Shown one piece after another: positions 2,040 through 18,140 of a stretch of DNA of 20,000 nt. The position numbers and the translations under genes were made by a program. The notes under the pieces were generated by a model. The model was not told where the DNA came from. It saw nothing but the letters and a program-made list of their open reading frames with translations, and did not search any database. Origin of the DNA: an uncultured virus (IMG/VR IMGVR_UViG_3300020048_000102) (taxonomy: Duplodnaviria > Heunggongvirae > Uroviricota > Caudoviricetes); IMG/VR virus record IMGVR_UViG_3300020048_000102, one strand, 5' to 3'. Positions within the stretch are counted from its first letter, which is position 1. Each line of letters starts with the position of its first letter.

Positions 2040-2681
2040 TTAGTATCCCGATAATATTATGTATTTATCACTAAAAAACGACTCTATTTTGATAACTTTC
2101 CAACCTCTGCTCACGCCGTTATCATTTATCATTCTGTGTACCGTGCCGGAACCGAATCCGGTCATTTCTCTAAATTCTACTCTTGTCATTGTCATTTGTT
2201 GATTTGTTTCAATGTTCAACCATTCATATTTTACTGATCTGAGTTTATTCAATTCGGATCTTTTTCTTCTAAAATCTTCGCTGTGTTTTATTCCTCTTAT
2301 TTTTTTCATTCTATTTTCTACATGTTGTTTAGTTTGAGATTTACCTCTCAATCTTTGACTTTGTTCAATTCGCGCTTCTTTAGATTTTTTCATCCCAGAT
2401 ACCCCTTCGCCCCCATCTGTTCCGTTGATTAGGATTCCAGTCTTTAGATCTTTTCTGCCCCACCAACGAATCATTCTGCGCTCTAATGCTAGTGCGCCTA
2501 ACTCAGATAGTCCGGATTCACAGATTACGATTCTATTGTTTTCTTTTGGGACTGGGATTTTGTGATGGGGTTTCCCCGCTCGTTCTGCCTTGCCTTTACC
2601 GATGTAATAAGGCGTTCCGTCTTGTCTTAGATAGGCATAAACATAAAACCCCAAGGGAGGGTTTAATTTACTAAATATCAT
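2040..2681 (-). CDS. Free-standing GIY-YIG (Seg-like) homing endonuclease with NUMOD3-like and C-terminal HTH-like DNA-binding segments
   Basis: [18 protein letters not shown] is the GIY...YIG motif. It is followed by R and E (ALALERRMI) and [19 protein letters not shown] and [11 protein letters not shown] are basic NUMOD3-like repeats. SD AAGGAG lies at 2690-2695. Confidence 0.85.
2062..2069 (-). promoter_or_regulatory. Late-promoter-like GATAAATA upstream of the gp6-like gene
   Basis: Resembles the T4 late promoter TATAAATA and lies about 27 nt upstream of the ATG at 2035. A gp55-like sigma factor is encoded in the window. Confidence 0.65.
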
Positions 2682-11653: not shown

Positions 11654-12595
11654 ATGATATCAACCACTCCAAAAAAGAACTATTTAAATAACAAAGACAT
11701 TCTCAAAGAAATTCATCTTAGTAAGAATACATTCTGTTCATTTGTTAAACCAGAATATCATCACTATGATTTAATCATTGATTATCTAGATAACAATGAC
11801 TTACAGCGTAGTCTAGAATACGCTAGTAAATCAGAAGTAATACAGCGTGCTAGAGAAGCCAGAGCGGCTAGACTAACACAGCAAGAAATTCTTGACGGAA
11901 CTAGAGAAAAAACAGATAAAATAGATCCAGACACGATTAATGTTGAAGACGTAGTATTTCGTGTTATGACCTGGGATCATATACCATTATCACCGAAAGT
12001 AGCCAGAAAATCCACTAAAACAAAATCAGCAAAAGAAATATTTGAGTTTGATATTGAACTCGAAGAACCATTATTTGAAGATTTAGAAAATGATTTACAA
12101 TTAGAAAAAGAAATGGGTTTGGATAATATGGTTCATGTTCGCTTGAATTTTCCTCCGTTTCAGCACTTCAAAATTGATAGCGATGGCTCATTTTACTGTG
12201 TAGGAAAAAGTCATTGGATAGGTAATATGGAAACCGGTGAGTTTAGTAAGGATCATGGGCAACTTACCAATAAATTAGCACACATGTATCTAAAACTGTG
12301 TGAAAAATATTCATTACGTTATAACTGGCGTGGCTATACATACGTGGACGAAATGCGCGGCGCGGCTATTCTACAACTGACCTACGTCGGTCTACGTTTT
12401 AATGAAGCAAAAAGTCAAAATCCTTTTGCATATTACACAGCAGCGATAACAAATTCATTCTGTCGTGTGTTAAATACCGAAAAACGTGTGCAGAATATTC
12501 GTGATGATATCTTAGAAATGAATGACCTTAATCCTTCATATTCCAGACAACACAGTCATGATTTAGCAAACGAGAAAAAAAGAAACGGAATCTGA
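11654..12595 (+). CDS. gp55: Phage late-transcription sigma factor, T4 gp55-like
   Basis: N-terminus NYLNNKDILKEI. The segment NWRGYTYVDEM...F...KSQNPFAYYTAAITNSFCRVLNTEKR matches gp55 region 2. The gene lies directly upstream of gp47/gp46, as in T4-like phages. Confidence 0.88.
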   Translation: MISTTPKKNYLNNKDILKEIHLSKNTFCSFVKPEYHHYDLIIDYLDNNDLQRSLEYASKSEVIQRAREARAARLTQQEILDGTREKTDKIDPDTINVEDVVFRVMTWDHIPLSPKVARKSTKTKSAKEIFEFDIELEEPLFEDLENDLQLEKEMGLDNMVHVRLNFPPFQHFKIDSDGSFYCVGKSHWIGNMETGEFSKDHGQLTNKLAHMYLKLCEKYSLRYNWRGYTYVDEMRGAAILQLTYVGLRFNEAKSQNPFAYYTAAITNSFCRVLNTEKRVQNIRDDILEMNDLNPSYSRQHSHDLANEKKRNGI

Positions 12596-12620
12596 TATTT
12601 TATCAATACTACCGAAACTA

Positions 12621-12650
12621 TTGATTTTTGCCATGTTATTATGTTAATAT
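12621..12650 (+). promoter_or_regulatory. Possible sigma70-type promoter for gp47
   Basis: TTGATT, an 18-nt spacer, then TAATAT with an extended -10 TG. It ends 6 nt before ATG 12657. Confidence 0.45.
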
Positions 12651-12656
12651 ACTAAT

Positions 12657-13673
12657 ATGAGCAACTTATTTAAACGAGCAGCGGTTTTTACCGATATTCA
12701 CTGGGGACTAAAGAGCAACAGTATTCAACATAATACTGATTGTGCCAATTTTATCGATTGGTTCATTGCCGAGTCTAAACGACACGATTGTGAAACTTGT
12801 TTCTTTTTAGGAGACTGGAATCACAATCGTGCCGCTATTAATTTACAAACACTACAATTTGGATTACGTGCACTTGAGCGTTTAAATGATTCATTTAAAC
12901 AGGTGTATTTTATTCCAGGTAACCATGATCTTTACTATCGTGAAAAGCGTGATGTTCACGGAGTAGAATGGGCCAAACATTTACCCAATGTTACCATTGT
13001 CAATGACTGGTTTACAGAGGGTGATGTTACGATTGCTCCCTGGATAGTAGGCGACGAGTGGAGACGATTATCCACAATGTCTGGAAAATACATGTTTGGT
13101 CACTTTGAGTTGCCACACTTTTACATGAATAGTTTTGTAGAAATGCCCGATCATGGTGAAATCAAGAGTTCTCATCTTTCCGGGTTTGAACATGTCTTCT
13201 CTGGTCATTTTCACAAGAGACAAACTAAATCTAATATTACCTACATTGGAAATGCGTTTCCACACAACTTTGCTGATGCCGGAGATGACGAGCGTGGCAT
13301 GATGATACTGGAATGGGGTAGTAAACCACAATACTTGAACTGGCCTAATGCTCCTAAATTTAGAGTTTATCGACTAAGCCAGGTTCTTGATAATCCATCA
13401 GCGTTGTTATTACCTGATAGTTATGTTAAAGTTAATCTAGATATCAATATTTCATTCGAAGAGGCGAATTTTATTCGTGAAAAATTAATGCCAGAACATC
13501 GTCTACGAGAACTAACTCTTATTCCTATTAAAATGGTCACTACCGATGACGGAACTGATATTTCAAATATTCATTTGGAAGGAATAGATTCAATTGTACA
13601 AAATCAAATTGATGAAATTCAAGATGGTGCCTACGATAAACGACTATTACTAGAGATTTACAAAAATCTATGA
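12657..13673 (+). CDS. gp47: Recombination nuclease, gp47/Mre11/SbcD metallophosphoesterase
   Basis: Contains motifs TDIHWG, GDWNH, GNHD, GHFE and SGHFH. It overlaps the next gene through ATGA. Confidence 0.93.
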   Translation: MSNLFKRAAVFTDIHWGLKSNSIQHNTDCANFIDWFIAESKRHDCETCFFLGDWNHNRAAINLQTLQFGLRALERLNDSFKQVYFIPGNHDLYYREKRDVHGVEWAKHLPNVTIVNDWFTEGDVTIAPWIVGDEWRRLSTMSGKYMFGHFELPHFYMNSFVEMPDHGEIKSSHLSGFEHVFSGHFHKRQTKSNITYIGNAFPHNFADAGDDERGMMILEWGSKPQYLNWPNAPKFRVYRLSQVLDNPSALLLPDSYVKVNLDINISFEEANFIREKLMPEHRLRELTLIPIKMVTTDDGTDISNIHLEGIDSIVQNQIDEIQDGAYDKRLLLEIYKNL

Positions 13674-15742
13674 GCATAAAATTTAAAACCCTAACTTTAC
13701 GCAATTTTCTATCTGTTGGACAGATAACCCAAACAGTTAACTTTGATAATCAAACACTTACGTTAATATTAGGCGAGAATTTGGATTTGGGTGGCGACGG
13801 TGCTAAGAATGGAACTGGAAAAACAACCATACTTCAGGGTCTAAGTTACGCACTATTTGGCTCTGCTATCAACAACATCAAACGTGACAATCTTATCAAC
13901 AGAACTAACGTCAAAAATATGATGGTTACTGTTGAATTCAGTGTCAATGATACAGAATATAGAATAGAGCGTGGAAGAAAACCAACATTCTTGAGATTGT
14001 ACGTCAATAATCAAGAACAACAATCAGACACGGAATCAAGCGATAGTCAGGGCGATAGTCGTGAAACTCAAGATCATATTGAACGCATTATGTCTATGTC
14101 AGCGGATATGTTCAAGCATATTATTGGACTGAACAGTTACAGCGAACCATTTTTATCACTAAAAGCAAACGACCAACGTGTCATTATTGAACAATTACTT
14201 GGTATTACACTGTTAAGTGAAAAGGCTGATCAACTTAAGGAAATGAATAAGGGCGTCAAAGATACTATTCAAAGTGAAGAGTATAGTATTCGAGGCATCG
14301 AGGAGGCTAATAAACGTATCAGTGAACAGATAGATAACTTGAAAAAACGTCAACGTTTATGGTCTCTTAAACGCGAAGAAGACTTGATGAAGTTATTTGC
14401 TGAGTATGAAGAATTATCTAAGATAGATATCGAGCATGAACTTCGCAGTCATAAGGATTTATCCGAGCATGTTCGGTTACGTGACCTAAAATCACAGCGT
14501 GATTCGCTTGTTGCTAGACAAACTAGTTGGATGACCAGCAGAGATCGAGAAATATCAGATCTACAACTGGAACTATCAAAACTTGATTCTATCGATATAG
14601 AACACGAATTACAGAAACACTCCGATCTAAAAACTTACAATGAATTAACAAAGTTAAAGTTAGATCAAGATTTAGAAATTGCTAGACTAGGAAAAGAAAT
14701 CGCTCGTGAAACTAAAACGATTGAGAAACTTGAACAGGAAATATCTACACTACAAGATCATAGATGTTACGCTTGTGGTCAAGATTTTCATGATGAACAA
14801 CACACTTCGGTATTGGATAACAAGTCCAGACAGTTAACTGACTGCGTCGATTCTAGATCAGAATTAGAATCCAAATTAGTTGAAACTAAATCCGCAGAGA
14901 TTGTAGTTATTGAAAAACCTGTTACACATTACGAAACTGAATCTGATGCTGTCAGACATAGTACCAAGGTTCTGAACTTACAAAATTTAATAGATTCTAA
15001 AAAATCAGAGTCTGACCCGTATCTAGAACAAATTTCTGATATGTCAGAAATTGTTTTGGGACCTGAACCTAAAACTCATTATGATACTGAAGAAGAAGCA
15101 TTTAAGCACCAGGGTCGTGTGTCTAGTCTACTAGAGCAGATCACAAAGAAACACGAGGAGTGTGATCCGTACTCTGAACAAATTCTAGATATGGAACAGG
15201 AAGGATTACAGGAAATTAAATTTGACCGTATCAATGAGTTGACTAGACAACTACAGCATCAGGAATTTTTATTAGATTTATTAACTAATAAAAAATCATT
15301 TGTTCGTCGTAGAATCATTGAACAAAACTTAAGCTATCTAAACAATCGTTTAACACATTATCTAGATAAAATGGGACTTCCACATCAAGTCGTGTTTCAG
15401 AATGATCTATCAGTTGAGATCACAGAACACGGTCGTGATTTAGACTTTGACAATTGTAGTCGAGGAGAAAGAACCAGAATTATTCTAGGATTGTCATTTG
15501 CGTTCCGTGATGTATGGGAATCTCTTTATCATAGTGCTAATCTATTATTTGTTGATGAGTTATTGGATAATGGATTAGATATTATAGGAGTTGAGAACGC
15601 TGTGGGACTACTAAAAGAAATGACTCGACGTAGAAATAAAAGCGTATGGCTAGTAAGTCATCGAGACGAGTTAACTAATCGAGTAGAATCTATTCTCAAA
15701 GTCATAAAAGAAAATGGGTATACTAGTTATGAAAATAGTTAA
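13670..15742 (+). CDS. gp46: Recombination ATPase, gp46/Rad50/SbcC
   Basis: RNFLS start, Walker A NGTGKTT, coiled coils, zinc hook CYAC (14765-14776), signature CSRGE, Walker B LLFVDE and H-loop VSH. Confidence 0.93.
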   Translation: MSIKFKTLTLRNFLSVGQITQTVNFDNQTLTLILGENLDLGGDGAKNGTGKTTILQGLSYALFGSAINNIKRDNLINRTNVKNMMVTVEFSVNDTEYRIERGRKPTFLRLYVNNQEQQSDTESSDSQGDSRETQDHIERIMSMSADMFKHIIGLNSYSEPFLSLKANDQRVIIEQLLGITLLSEKADQLKEMNKGVKDTIQSEEYSIRGIEEANKRISEQIDNLKKRQRLWSLKREEDLMKLFAEYEELSKIDIEHELRSHKDLSEHVRLRDLKSQRDSLVARQTSWMTSRDREISDLQLELSKLDSIDIEHELQKHSDLKTYNELTKLKLDQDLEIARLGKEIARETKTIEKLEQEISTLQDHRCYACGQDFHDEQHTSVLDNKSRQLTDCVDSRSELESKLVETKSAEIVVIEKPVTHYETESDAVRHSTKVLNLQNLIDSKKSESDPYLEQISDMSEIVLGPEPKTHYDTEEEAFKHQGRVSSLLEQITKKHEECDPYSEQILDMEQEGLQEIKFDRINELTRQLQHQEFLLDLLTNKKSFVRRRIIEQNLSYLNNRLTHYLDKMGLPHQVVFQNDLSVEITEHGRDLDFDNCSRGERTRIILGLSFAFRDVWESLYHSANLLFVDELLDNGLDIIGVENAVGLLKEMTRRRNKSVWLVSHRDELTNRVESILKVIKENGYTSYENS

Positions 15743-15783
15743 TAAAATTTTTTTAAAAGAACAAAGGACTGCTAAGTAATAAC

Positions 15784-16305
15784 ATGCCATCACCAAGTAA
15801 AAATAAAGGATCAGGTTTCGAGCGAGAAGTTGCTCGTTACCTTAGTGATCTCTACGGAGAATCGTTTATTCGTGCGCCTGGATCCGGCGCCTACACAGGT
15901 GGTACTAACAGTCATCGTAAACAGATACTTCACGAGGGTCAGATTCGTTCATTTAAGGGCGATATCATACCTGGCGAAAGCTTTACTCGTTTCAACGCTG
16001 AGTGTAAGTTCTATGGTGACTTTGGATTTCATCAGTTGTTCGAGGAGTCCAGACAGCTTGAATCATGGTTAGAGCAGTTAATGACGGCCGGTGATCCTGG
16101 CGACGCAAACATATTGTTTATGAAAATCAATCGTCGTGGCAGATTCGTTGCCGTTGAACAATCTCAAAACTGGAATACTGACTGTAATCACACTGTCTAC
16201 AATAGTACAGGAGATCATGGTCGTTGGTTAGTCTATCGTCTAGAAACATTTTTTGATCTGAATGCTGAACGCCTAAAAACGCTGAGTGGGGTCAATGCAC
16301 AGTAA
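15784..16305 (+). CDS. Holliday junction resolvase-like PD-(D/E)XK nuclease (Hjc type)
   Basis: SKNKGSGFEREVA...SGA...GDII...AECKFY is the Hjc/phage resolvase pattern. Confidence 0.8.
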   Translation: MPSPSKNKGSGFEREVARYLSDLYGESFIRAPGSGAYTGGTNSHRKQILHEGQIRSFKGDIIPGESFTRFNAECKFYGDFGFHQLFEESRQLESWLEQLMTAGDPGDANILFMKINRRGRFVAVEQSQNWNTDCNHTVYNSTGDHGRWLVYRLETFFDLNAERLKTLSGVNAQ

Positions 16306-16492
16306 CAAACGCGACATCAATCGTTGGAAACGACACGCTAAACTTAGAAAAAATAGTCTGGGTGTAGAATCTAAACAACGTGAATCCGATGAACAGTTGA
16401 TTCAACCAGTTGATCCACTTGCTCCTCGTACTATTAGAGTTGTAAAGTTAGACGGTACAGTTCAAATCATTGAAGTAAAAAAGCAACAGTAA
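16295..16492 (+). CDS. Small basic hypothetical protein (about 65 aa)
   Basis: ATG at 16295 overlaps the end of the resolvase gene. Sequence MHSNKRDINRWKRHAKLRKNSLG...RTIRVVKLDGTVQIIEVKKQQ. No family recognised. Confidence 0.5.
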   Translation: MHSNKRDINRWKRHAKLRKNSLGVESKQRESDEQLIQPVDPLAPRTIRVVKLDGTVQIIEVKKQQ

Positions 16493-16538
16493 ACAACTGT
16501 TGTGTTATAGGTCAAACAACAGACCTATTCAAAAAACT

Positions 16539-16866
16539 AGAAACGTTGCTATTGCCGGGTTAGGTTATTACCAGGCTTCAGTGGCCCGATAAAGAAAAAT
16601 GTCGGGAGGAGAAAGACTTAGACTTTGGTTCTGTTCAGTACACACTGGACTATACGCCTTACAGTCAAGCCGTCTATAAACGACTAAGCCCCAAAGGTAA
16701 ACTACTTTGGAACCAGGCAAGCAAGACGTTTTTGCGTTATAATTATATGGTGAATAAGAGTTCTGGGTGCAACCTTTGCGTACAGTCTTTCTCTGTCTGA
16801 GTTCTTCACGGAAACAGATAAAAAGACGGGGGGAGGTTGTGGTATAACATCTCTTACCTCTGTATG
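16539..16866 (+). ncRNA. Candidate large structured non-coding RNA (unassigned)
   Basis: Nested long-range helices and several hairpins. The non-Watson-Crick pairs are G-U when read on the plus strand. No credible ORF. Confidence 0.5.
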
Positions 16867-16869
16867 AGT

Positions 16870-17052
16870 GGGTCATATCGCTTCGCTCAATGACCCGTTG
16901 TTTGTCACTGACGAGCTGTCGCTCGTCTGGCGTGACAACAACAGATTTCTATTAAGTCTATTTCTTCTTAACTGATATCAGTATCAGTTACTGAGTAATT
17001 AAAACACGTCGGGAGTCCCCCGGGACGAACCGACAGGCGAGATATCTCGCCT
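16870..17052. repeat. Cluster of strong inverted repeats and palindromes (bidirectional terminators and/or a DNA cis-element)
   Basis: GGGTCAT/ATGACCC (16870-16896); GTTGT-TGTCAC-GACGAGC/GCTCGTC-GTGACA-ACAAC (16897-16942); TAACTGATA/TATCAGTTA (16969-16990); GTCGG-GTCC/GGAC-CCGAC (17008-17034); perfect palindrome AGGCGAGATATCTCGCCT (17035-17052). Confidence 0.85.
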
Positions 17053-17088
17053 TTAAAATATAGAATGATGAATGTGCGCTCAAAATTT

Positions 17089-17325
17089 TTAAAAGAATGG
17101 AATTTTGGTTTTTTTGGTAATTTCCATGTGCTCATCGATGATTTTGTTTAAATTATCGATCTCTTCTCGACTCATGTTCATTATGTCTGAGTATCCGATC
17201 CCACCTCTAAAATGCCATACCAAGTTGTGAGCGTTACATAGTATTTTCATTTTTTCTTTTACCATATCATCAGTGAGTTGAGTAATTTCAACCACACCGA
17301 GAGGTAGGATCGTTAGCCGAAAAAA
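17089..17325 (-). CDS. gp51-like hub/tail assembly chaperone segment, probably expressed as a -1 frameshift extension of the upstream gene
   Basis: Contains RGGIGYSDIMNMSREEI...IIDEHMEITKKTKIPFF. The frame is open from 17325, exactly at the slippery heptamer. The annotated GTG at 17295 has no SD. Confidence 0.65.
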   Translation of the reverse strand, partial: FFRLTILPLGVVEITQLTDDMVKEKMKILCNAHNLVWHFRGGIGYSDIMNMSREEIDNLNKIIDEHMEITKKTKIPFF

Positions 17326-18140
17326 TCAGTAACGTTTAATATCACCTTTTGTGAATACTCATGACTACAGTTAGAACATTTAATATCTAAATCTGGTATT
17401 TCACTGGATTCTCTGATTTTTACGCTATGGTCTTTTATAGCATTACTAGTCTCTCGATCACAATTATTTAAAAAATCTACAATATATTCTTTCTGACTAA
17501 CAGTAGATTCTGGAGTCTGGATATAATCTATGGTCTTGGCAACAATGTTTGTAACAAGGTCATTCAACCGTTTTACAGAATCCGCCATAAGTTTTTGTTT
17601 TTCTTCATTTTCCTCGAAATTTTGCAAATCATATAATATTTTCTGAATTTCGAATTGATTTTGGCCGTTGTTATTTATTTCAGTGTATGTTAATGGTCTA
17701 AACTTGATAGATAATTCATGAATCAATAACGGAACGTTATAGTCAACATTTTTAATTTTTTCTAATAATGGCATAATATTGACTTCGTATTCTGTAGATT
17801 CTCCACACGAAGGACAGACACTCTGAATATCCATTTTTCCATTGCCACTGGCAGCACGAATTGCCACTAAAATGGCATCTAGGTCAACAATATTAATTTT
17901 CCATGGATCATGAATATTAGGCATACAGCTCTTAATTAGTTCTACGATTGCCACGCCATTCATTAATGCGTCAGGTGTTCTAATAGTCATTTCGTCACCG
18001 GATGTCATTGGATATACCGGTAATTCCTGATTTGGTGGAATATCAACTATGCCGGGTTCATAATATTGTCCTCCACTTGGAAGTTTAAAATAAATGCTGG
18101 GTCTGCGAAAATATTGTTTTAATGGATTGTTTTCAATCAT
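17313..18140 (-). CDS. gp26: Baseplate hub assembly chaperone, T4 gp26-like, with two CxxC motifs
   Basis: FKLPSGG...VYPMTSGDE...DLDAILVAIRAAS.G...CPSCG...IKFRPLTY...CSNC, ending DFFG. Preceded by SD GAGGA. Confidence 0.75.
   Translation of the reverse strand: MIENNPLKQYFRRPSIYFKLPSGGQYYEPGIVDIPPNQELPVYPMTSGDEMTIRTPDALMNGVAIVELIKSCMPNIHDPWKINIVDLDAILVAIRAASGNGKMDIQSVCPSCGESTEYEVNIMPLLEKIKNVDYNVPLLIHELSIKFRPLTYTEINNNGQNQFEIQKILYDLQNFEENEEKQKLMADSVKRLNDLVTNIVAKTIDYIQTPESTVSQKEYIVDFLNNCDRETSNAIKDHSVKIRESSEIPDLDIKCSNCSHEYSQKVILNVTDFFG
17319..17325 (-). other. Putative -1 programmed ribosomal frameshift site T TTT TTC
   Basis: X XXY YYZ heptamer in the correct phase (GAT TTT TTC GGC TAA). The -1 frame opens here and continues for 78 codons. 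Confidence 0.7.

What the first reader, a model, noticed from the sequence alone, without database searches (positions are those of the whole stretch)
16539..16866. Unassigned multi-junction structured RNA candidate downstream of the recombination/resolvase operon
Seen: a long closing helix AAACGT-TGC-TTGCC-GGTT (16541-16561) / AACC-GGCAA-GCA-ACGTTT (16711-16731). It encloses hairpin GGT-tatt-ACC, helix GGCTT-c-AGT (16574-82) / ACT-AAGCC (16683-90) and hairpin CCAAAG/CTTTGG (16691-16710). Inside the inner helix are CCCGAT/GTCGGG (16585-16606), GACT/AGTC (16621-24/16663-66) and GTTCAGT/ACTGGAC (16633-50). All of these are mutually compatible. A second domain may close with TAAGAG (16755-60) / CTCTTA (16851-56). 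Mismatches are G-U on the plus strand and would be A-C on the minus strand, which points to a plus-strand RNA. The region is visibly more GC-rich than its surroundings in an otherwise densely coding genome. Inference: a roughly 330-nt phage ncRNA (ribozyme-like, scaffold or primer RNA). I do not recognise it as tRNA, tmRNA, RNase P or an intron.
Basis: partly seen in the sequence, partly recalled or inferred. Interest (0 to 1): 0.78.

Follow-up and report, generated by a model that had tools for sequence, protein, structure and literature searches.

The report
Uncatalogued folded RNA in jumbo phage
A large freshwater bacterial virus carries, between its DNA-recombination genes and a tail gene, a roughly 355-base folded non-coding RNA of an undescribed family, in a fixed slot where related viruses keep different folded RNAs; what it does is still open, and priming DNA replication is the leading guess.

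Summary
The element spans about 16484-16840 (+), starting 55 nt upstream of the finding. It is a divergent, mosaic member of an uncatalogued family ('B', 8 distinct relatives). The resolvase-gp51 gap is syntenic in 78 of 80 loci; 49 of 52 distinct gaps hold a second, sequence-unrelated 350-nt covarying, pseudoknotted RNA ('A'), and one holds a third. No Rfam family matches and ten literature searches found no description. No RNA data were available. Best mechanistic guess (about 0.3): a ColE1-RNA-II-like pre-primer at a replication origin (3' G-run, AT-rich spacer, DNA-type mini-hairpins); GC skew and RNase H searches did not support it. A GOLLD/ROOL-like trans-acting RNA is nearly as likely.

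The parts
11654..16305 (+). Upstream operon: late sigma factor (11654-12595), SbcD-like (12657-13673), SbcC-like (13670-15742), RusA-like Holliday junction resolvase (15784-16305); probable source of the transcript (inference)
   Evidence: ORFs; PHROGs
16286..16492 (+). Small basic ORF (68 aa), no family; its stop codon lies in the loop of the first RNA hairpin; present in only some relatives
   Evidence: L008, L091, L109; no PHROG or atlas hit
16484..16502 (+). Hairpin H-1 with A-rich loop; on the minus strand it scores as an intrinsic terminator
   Evidence: equivalent hairpin with different stem letters in 6 of 7 relatives folded and in the X8 loose end; terminator scan
16507..16547 (+). 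Hairpin H0 (16507-13/16522-28) plus A-rich leader; the family-B signature
   Evidence: B profile hit 16508-16555, E 9e-6; alignment; weak sub-threshold PreQ1 score
16553..16577 (+).
   Evidence: 3 compensatory pairs and 2 repaired mismatches in the X8/X20 variant
16585..16606 (+).
   Evidence: MFE in window and variant; no variation seen, so untested
16607..16683 (+). Purine strand (16607-18) and P3/P3a domain (16614-17/16672-75; 16621-24/16663-66) carrying a version of the conserved family-B loop
   Evidence: positional homology to B helices with covariation; an X16 contig joins a B-type loop to window 16668-16733; window pairing itself inferred
16684..16755 (+). Window-specific middle domain with hairpin 16691-96/16705-10
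   Evidence: MFE; unchanged in X8; structure inferred only
16756..16836 (+). 3' domain: small hairpin 16768-80, pyrimidine strand 16784-93 that can pair either with 16609-18 or with 16822-36, inner hairpin, terminal G6 run (16828-33)
   Evidence: nearly identical in L104/L108 and X19 contigs; B profile hit E 5e-4 (63); duplex tests
16837..16942 (.). Variable spacer then two tandem hairpins with mini-hairpin-type loops (16870-96, 16897-16942); probably DNA-level or terminator elements, not part of the RNA fold
   Evidence: conserved in B and L008; motif enrichment
17089..18140 (-). Convergent gp51-like small gene (17089-17295; name by position, no PHROG hit) and baseplate hub (17313-18140)

Best explanation
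Identity (shown by comparison, about 0.9): a single-copy, plus-strand, ~355-nt multi-domain non-coding RNA, a divergent mosaic member of an uncatalogued family B, occupying a slot between the resolvase and gp51 genes that other phages of the lineage fill with unrelated folded RNAs. Mechanism (inferred, about 0.3): it is the pre-primer of an R-loop replication origin. Transcription from the late-sigma/SbcCD/resolvase operon runs through it; the RNA folds co-transcriptionally; its pyrimidine strand switches between partners and so frees or hides the terminal G-run; the freed 3' end stays hybridised to the template across the AT-rich spacer, as RNA II does in ColE1; the hairpins behind it fold in the opened DNA and serve as loading sites for the replication machinery.
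For: Shown: fixed slot in 78 of 80 loci with three unrelated RNA families, which suits a cis-acting element; unrelated primer RNAs with one mechanism are known from ColE1 and MRB plasmids (PMC6380287, passage). All 8 B members and the window end in a run of 5-6 G followed by a 41-89-nt spacer of 60-79% AT (A: median 56 nt, 76% AT, n=49) and hairpins; the mini-hairpin word RCGNAGY is 4-fold enriched in the gaps (2.76 vs 0.67 per kb; 50 of 53 gaps). That C-GNA-G triloops are stable in DNA rather than RNA is recalled, not tested. The pyrimidine strand has up to three purine partners. Iteron-like repeats lie beside the RNA in L081 (3 x 26 nt) and L109. Phosso has RNase HI next to the syntenic gap. 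In 4 of 4 uncultured genomes the element lies 5.5-7.1 kb from the global switch in gene orientation and is the nearest large gene-free gap.
Against: Four-fold-site GC skew shows no leading/lagging difference around the element in 6 of 6 genomes, and in PA5oct and Phosso the gap is far from the skew and gene-strand minima. No RNase H (PF00075) in 5 of 5 phage records (4 are incomplete). Family A lacks a terminal G-run and has many invariant junction bases, more like a compact functional RNA. The mini-hairpin words also occur elsewhere in each genome and the hairpin cassette has no meaningful plasmid match. G-run pairing was not better than shuffles in most members.
Confidence: 0.33

Rival explanations
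1. A trans-acting large structural RNA in the manner of GOLLD or ROOL: released as the last unit of the operon, it folds through kissing loops and pseudoknots, perhaps multimerises, and binds a host or phage protein through its tandem A-rich hairpins; different phage clades carry different versions because their hosts or partners differ. The downstream hairpins are then just terminators between convergent operons.
For: Ornate folds with pseudoknots and invariant junctions (A; B kissing loop H1-H3 with a two-position compensatory swap in L091/L109); tandem hairpins with A-rich loops conserved in shape not sequence; 229 nt without a substitution in X8 against about 11 expected from the flanks; precedent of phage RNAs that multimerise through kissing loops (PMC12286853, passages).
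Against: Not in a tRNA island; no reason for a trans-acting RNA to keep one slot while its sequence is replaced; the four abundant PA5oct ncRNAs are elsewhere in that genome (PMC7318152 Table 1).
Confidence: 0.28
2. A cis-acting 3' untranslated region of the sigma-SbcCD-resolvase message: a nuclease block and termination or attenuation device between two convergent operons, possibly tuned by a short antisense RNA ending at hairpin H-1.
For: Begins at the stop codon of the upstream gene in the window and in family A; alternative pairings; minus-strand terminator at H-1 and a minus-strand promoter-like site at 16676-16649.
Against: 350 nt with pseudoknots exceeds what termination needs; the promoter scan found 2 sites against 1.7 expected by chance; an A-run before H-1 is clear in only 3 of 9 sequences.
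Confidence: 0.15
3. A ribozyme, for example a degenerate RNase P-like or a new processing RNA for the many phage tRNAs.
For: Invariant junction bases in family A; the window's order of helices (16609-18 pairing to 16784-93 across a closed domain) recalls the RNase P P2/P4 arrangement (recalled resemblance); these phages carry up to 34 tRNAs.
Against: RF00010 finds nothing in 5 of 5 phage records at E<=10 while ringing in 11 of 14 controls; no ribozyme family scores in any cmscan; the long-range helix is strong only in the window and L104/L108.
Confidence: 0.08
4. Not an RNA: the pairings matter in single-stranded or cruciform DNA (for instance a substrate or loading site for the neighbouring SbcCD and resolvase), or are partly chance.
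For: No transcript evidence could be obtained; folding z-scores as low occur in coding DNA; some B members fold no better than shuffles or better on the minus strand.
Against: One-sided G-U-type changes are frequent in family A helices and pseudoknots covary; plus strand favoured in the window.
Confidence: 0.07

Closest known systems
GOLLD and ROOL RNAs (PMC12286853, passages read)
   Same: Large, multi-domain, pseudoknotted non-coding RNAs of phages with kissing loops and no settled function.
   Different: About half the length or less; no Rfam score; not in a tRNA island; fixed slot beside recombination genes with three exchangeable families.
ColE1 RNA II and MRB plasmid primer RNAs (PMC6380287, passage read; G-tract role recalled)
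   Same: Long structured RNA with alternative folds ending before an AT-rich stretch and hairpins; unrelated sequences in the same role.
   Different: No sequence match; in a 200-470 kb phage; no RNase H in the uncultured relatives searched; origin activity and an antisense RNA not shown.
Phage T4 R-loop origins such as the uvsY origin (recalled; my search returned no paper)
   Same: Transcript-primed origin in a T4-like phage, near baseplate genes.
   Different: T4 origins are a promoter plus an unwinding element with no conserved RNA fold known to me.
PreQ1-I riboswitch (RF00522)
   Same: Hairpin H0 followed by an A-rich tail scores 18.4 bits.
   Different: Far below the 39-bit threshold (E 0.36); the loop cannot pair with the tail end; no downstream gene on that strand.
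Polynucleobacter-1 motif (RF01718; PMC2864571, table row seen)
   Different: No match in 5 of 5 phage records at E<=10 or in any cmscan.

Membership tests
Any Rfam 15 family | Covariance-model score at or above gathering threshold | tested here: not met
   Window, 20 loci at gathering, A and B pieces, 11 loci at E<=0.5 (133): none
Family B (this work) | 5' tandem hairpins and leader | tested here: met
   Profile built without the window hits 16508-16555, E 9e-6
Family B (this work) | 3' pyrimidine strand, hairpin and G-run domain | tested here: met
   Hit 16755-16839, E 5e-4; alignment
Family B (this work) | Central core (H1-H3 kiss, P3/P3a loop, H4 loop) | tested here: inconclusive
   No profile hit in the middle; P3/P3a placed by motif and by one bridging X16 contig; H3 and H4 loops not recognisable
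Family A (this work) | Sequence profile match | tested here: not met
   No hit at the locus in window, B members or L008; B 5' model gives no hit at A loci
Bacterial RNase P RNA (RF00010) | Model score and conserved regions | tested here: not met
   0 of 5 records, controls 11 of 14; none in window
Bacterial RNase P RNA (RF00010) | pre-tRNA cleavage | not testable with these tools
   needs in vitro assay
PreQ1-I riboswitch | Score over threshold and loop-tail pseudoknot | tested here: not met
   18.4 of 39 bits; loop letters do not pair with the tail in the alignment
tRNA / tmRNA | ARAGORN detection | tested here: not met
   0 genes in window; relatives carry a separate tmRNA elsewhere
ColE1-type primer RNA origin | Sequence similarity to plasmid origins | tested here: not met
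   Downstream cassettes give only chance hits in PLSDB; the RNA itself was not searched against plasmids
ColE1-type primer RNA origin | Location at a replication origin | tested here: inconclusive
   Near gene-strand switch in 4 of 6 genomes; no replication skew at four-fold sites
ColE1-type primer RNA origin | Persistent RNA:DNA hybrid processed to a primer | not testable with these tools
   needs R-loop and nascent-strand mapping
Retron / RT-associated ncRNA | Reverse transcriptase in the genome or adjacent | tested here: not met
   PF00078 in 0 of 5 records, controls 3 of 14; none adjacent
GOLLD / ROOL | Abundant discrete transcript, multimer formation | not testable with these tools
   no RNA holder listed

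The most novel reading that the evidence does not exclude
A lineage of jumbo phages (uncultured freshwater clades through PA5oct and Phosso) initiates replication from an origin defined by a large pseudoknotted primer RNA, and swaps whole RNA families and single domains in that slot faster than the flanking proteins diverge, as an incompatibility or host-adaptation module. The window holds one such mosaic.
Probability: 0.25. Interest if true: 0.9.

Novelty: new variant of a known kind. Interest (0 to 1): 0.7.

Why it matters
Two alignable, uncatalogued classes of large phage RNA come out of this locus, one (A) with dense covariation and pseudoknots, ready for probing or cryo-EM. The same slot is gene-poor and folds well in cultured phages (PA5oct/Paride, Phosso), so its function can be tested genetically. 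How these jumbo phages start replication is, to my knowledge, not established; a primer-RNA origin would answer that, and a trans-acting RNA would add a new class beside GOLLD and ROOL.

Tried and rejected
No RNA holder listed among sequencing runs: no evidence either way on expression. BLAST of the gap against GenBank phages: chance hits only. Hub and gp51 protein scans added few new loci; GTDB gave two short resolvase fragments without the gap. Of 119 loci from the loose hairpin pattern most were chance; only those with resolvase, gp51 or hub homology or the leader motif were kept; L096, L099, L229 and L235 were dropped as chance pattern matches. A full-length covariance model of B could not be calibrated within the time limit, so only the 5' 76 positions were modelled; outside the training loci its best hit was E 0.02. 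T4-type RNase H search rang nowhere, controls included, so says nothing. The minus-strand 102-aa ORF across the element has no family and was set aside. RNase P, PreQ1, HDV-like and group I readings were considered from recalled motifs and rejected on Rfam scores. PMC12619734 and PMC10085705 (passages) do not mention this RNA. Fremin 2023 (PMC10690425): candidates are at most 151 nt (passage); six motifs were not found in the supplements searched, but 3 of 6 held files were not searched and 3 more were too large, so fragments may be listed there. PA5oct supplements (2 files) gave no row for the gap's genes.

Full report
Setting. The window is part of a large T4-like phage: late sigma factor, SbcD, SbcC and a RusA-like resolvase on the plus strand face a gp51-like gene and the baseplate hub on the minus strand. 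The finding lies in the 596-nt gap between a small ORF (ends 16492) and the gp51-like gene (17089). The nearest cultured phages are distant: SCTP-2, the PA5oct group and Phosso at 36-42% resolvase identity. Runs holding the stretch are aquatic, runoff, wetland, lake, soil and sediment metagenomes from 11 studies.

Observation. The listed helices exist and mostly reproduce the minimum-energy fold (z -3.16 on plus, -1.14 on minus). With the two upstream hairpins included (16484-16840) z is -4.80. Energy alone proves little here, since part of the SbcD gene gives -4.92, and the GC excess is shared with the resolvase gene. No Rfam family or tRNA/tmRNA matches.

Strain variants overturn the proposed fold. 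Contigs of four runs were laid on 16200-17200 (4 of 20 holders). X8 and X20, from two studies, share one haplotype with 11 substitutions in 16551-16577; it counts as one event, and the X20 contig has depth 2. Three pairs of a local hairpin 16553-60/16570-77 change on both sides and two mismatches become pairs (6 of 8 to 8 of 8). In the window sequence itself the energy model gives the local hairpin probability 0, so either the model is misled or the window RNA has an alternative state. X8 has no substitution over 16578-16806 against about 11 expected from its flanks (recent recombination could also do this). Upstream of 16511 X8 is different in sequence yet still ends in a hairpin with an A-rich loop (table 7).

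Synteny. Of 80 loci fetched with the resolvase, 78 also show the gp51-like gene 424-1104 nt downstream, giving 52 distinct gaps. Forty-nine hold one conserved ~350-nt sequence, family A; two (L001, L004) hold family B; L008 holds a third, unrelated, strongly folding sequence (z -5.67). For A, 47 of the 49 were aligned (L029 and L049 left out as near-duplicates): mean identity 72%, about 16 effective sequences; RNAalifold gives 62 pairs, 35 with a two-sided change, covariation term -12.0. Mutual information adds pseudoknots (columns 192-197 with 334-339; a C-run with a G-run) and a possible base triple. An A profile does not hit the window, B or L008 at the locus.

The window belongs to family B. 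Pattern scans gave eight distinct relatives, all beside resolvase, gp51 and hub homologues; L001/L004, L104/L108 and L091/L109 are close pairs, so independent evidence is nearer five. A profile built from these eight alone hits the window at 16508-16555 (E 9e-6) and 16755-16839 (E 5e-4). The 3' domain is nearly identical to that of L104/L108 and to X19 contigs, and an X16 contig links a B-type loop to window 16668-16733, so the window RNA is a mosaic. On the B alignment my 46-pair structure has 88.7% of cells paired and 12 pairs with two-sided change (4 of 500 shuffles; slid controls 0-3); the structure was drawn from these sequences and L091/L109 are partly misaligned, so this is supportive, not decisive. 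Shared features are tandem 5' hairpins with A-rich loops (7 of 8 folded), a kissing interaction between the H1 and H3 loops with a compensatory swap in L091/L109, two invariant loops, and a pyrimidine strand near the 3' end that can pair with the 5' leader, a central purine strand or the terminal G-rich strand. The central pairing is strong in the window (-15.5 kcal/mol, 0 of 300 shuffles) and L104/L108, weak in the other six.

Context of the slot. The element is single-copy in the three genomes where a profile applied. It is followed by an AT-rich spacer and hairpins with C-GNA-G-type loops. In four uncultured genomes it lies 5.5-7.1 kb from the global switch of gene orientation, but GC skew merely follows gene strand, four-fold sites show no replication bias, and PA5oct and Phosso (400 of 469 kb analysed) place the gap far from the switch. 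These two cultured phages keep a gene-poor gap at the same position that folds better than shuffles (z -2.5 and -3.7), without sequence match to A or B; Phosso has RNase HI beside it. The four ncRNAs reported for PA5oct lie elsewhere (PMC7318152, passages and Table 1). RNase H and reverse transcriptase domains were absent from 5 of 5 uncultured records.

Mechanism. Shown: a conserved folded element, its homologues, its position. Inferred: transcription, strand, boundaries within about 10 nt, and every functional step. I rank an R-loop pre-primer first (0.33) because a slot that keeps its place, its spacer and its DNA-type hairpins while the RNA is exchanged looks cis-acting, and because unrelated primer RNAs with one mechanism are known from plasmids (PMC6380287, passage). 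My own tests of the origin idea were neutral or negative. A trans-acting GOLLD/ROOL-like RNA (0.28) explains the invariant junctions better. A 3' UTR device (0.15), a ribozyme (0.08) and a DNA-only structure (0.07) follow; the remainder is unforeseen.

Novelty. No Rfam match for the window, A, B, L008 or the cultured gaps. Ten literature searches (listings only unless a paper is named) found no description; the library lacks most subscription papers, and unread supplements of PMC10690425 could list fragments. Two unchecked notes from this scan describe what appear to be other B-like members. It is a new RNA class within a known broad kind, large ornate phage RNAs; the exchangeable slot is the part I have not seen described.

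Noticed in passing
L017:3557-3929 and 48 other gaps (family A): A separate ~350-nt RNA family with dense covariation, at least two pseudoknots and many invariant junction bases; no Rfam match; far more abundant than family B and the better target for structure work.
   Followed up: partly
L008:3770-4160: Third, unrelated structured sequence in the same slot (z -5.67), behind a homologue of the small ORF.
   Followed up: partly
resolvase 3' tail, about 45-55 nt before family A RNA (e.g. L017:3505-3520): An 11-nt motif in 50 of 52 loci, always in frame (Asp-Thr-x-Ser) but with fixed rare codons (GAC 50 of 50 against 33% background), one copy per genome; suggests a nucleotide-level signal. Not seen in the window's resolvase tail.
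   Followed up: partly
L081:4742-4818: Three 25-26-nt direct repeats just upstream of a family A RNA that is preceded by a nuclease-like ORF rather than the resolvase; iteron-like.
   Followed up: no
L252:3486-4501 (Phosso) and L251:2978-4492 (PA5oct): Syntenic gene-poor gaps in cultured phages fold better than shuffles; Phosso has RNase HI adjacent; PA5oct annotates four tiny ORFs there.
   Followed up: partly
window 12741-13080: Coding stretch of the SbcD-like gene folds with z -4.92; possible structured mRNA element or chance.
   Followed up: no
window 16595-16608 and 17002-17015: 14-nt direct repeat (86%) between hairpin H1b and a downstream hairpin that scores as a minus-strand terminator.
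   Followed up: no
window 16969-16993: Short palindrome with a repeated unit that is expanded by 12 nt in run X8; L109 has degenerate repeats at the same place.
   Followed up: no
window 2040-2681 (-): Homing-endonuclease-like ORF inserted among baseplate genes (PHROG 314, weak).
   Followed up: no
G001, G002, G005: Each carries a tmRNA call marked as permuted or atypical by ARAGORN, away from this locus.
   Followed up: no
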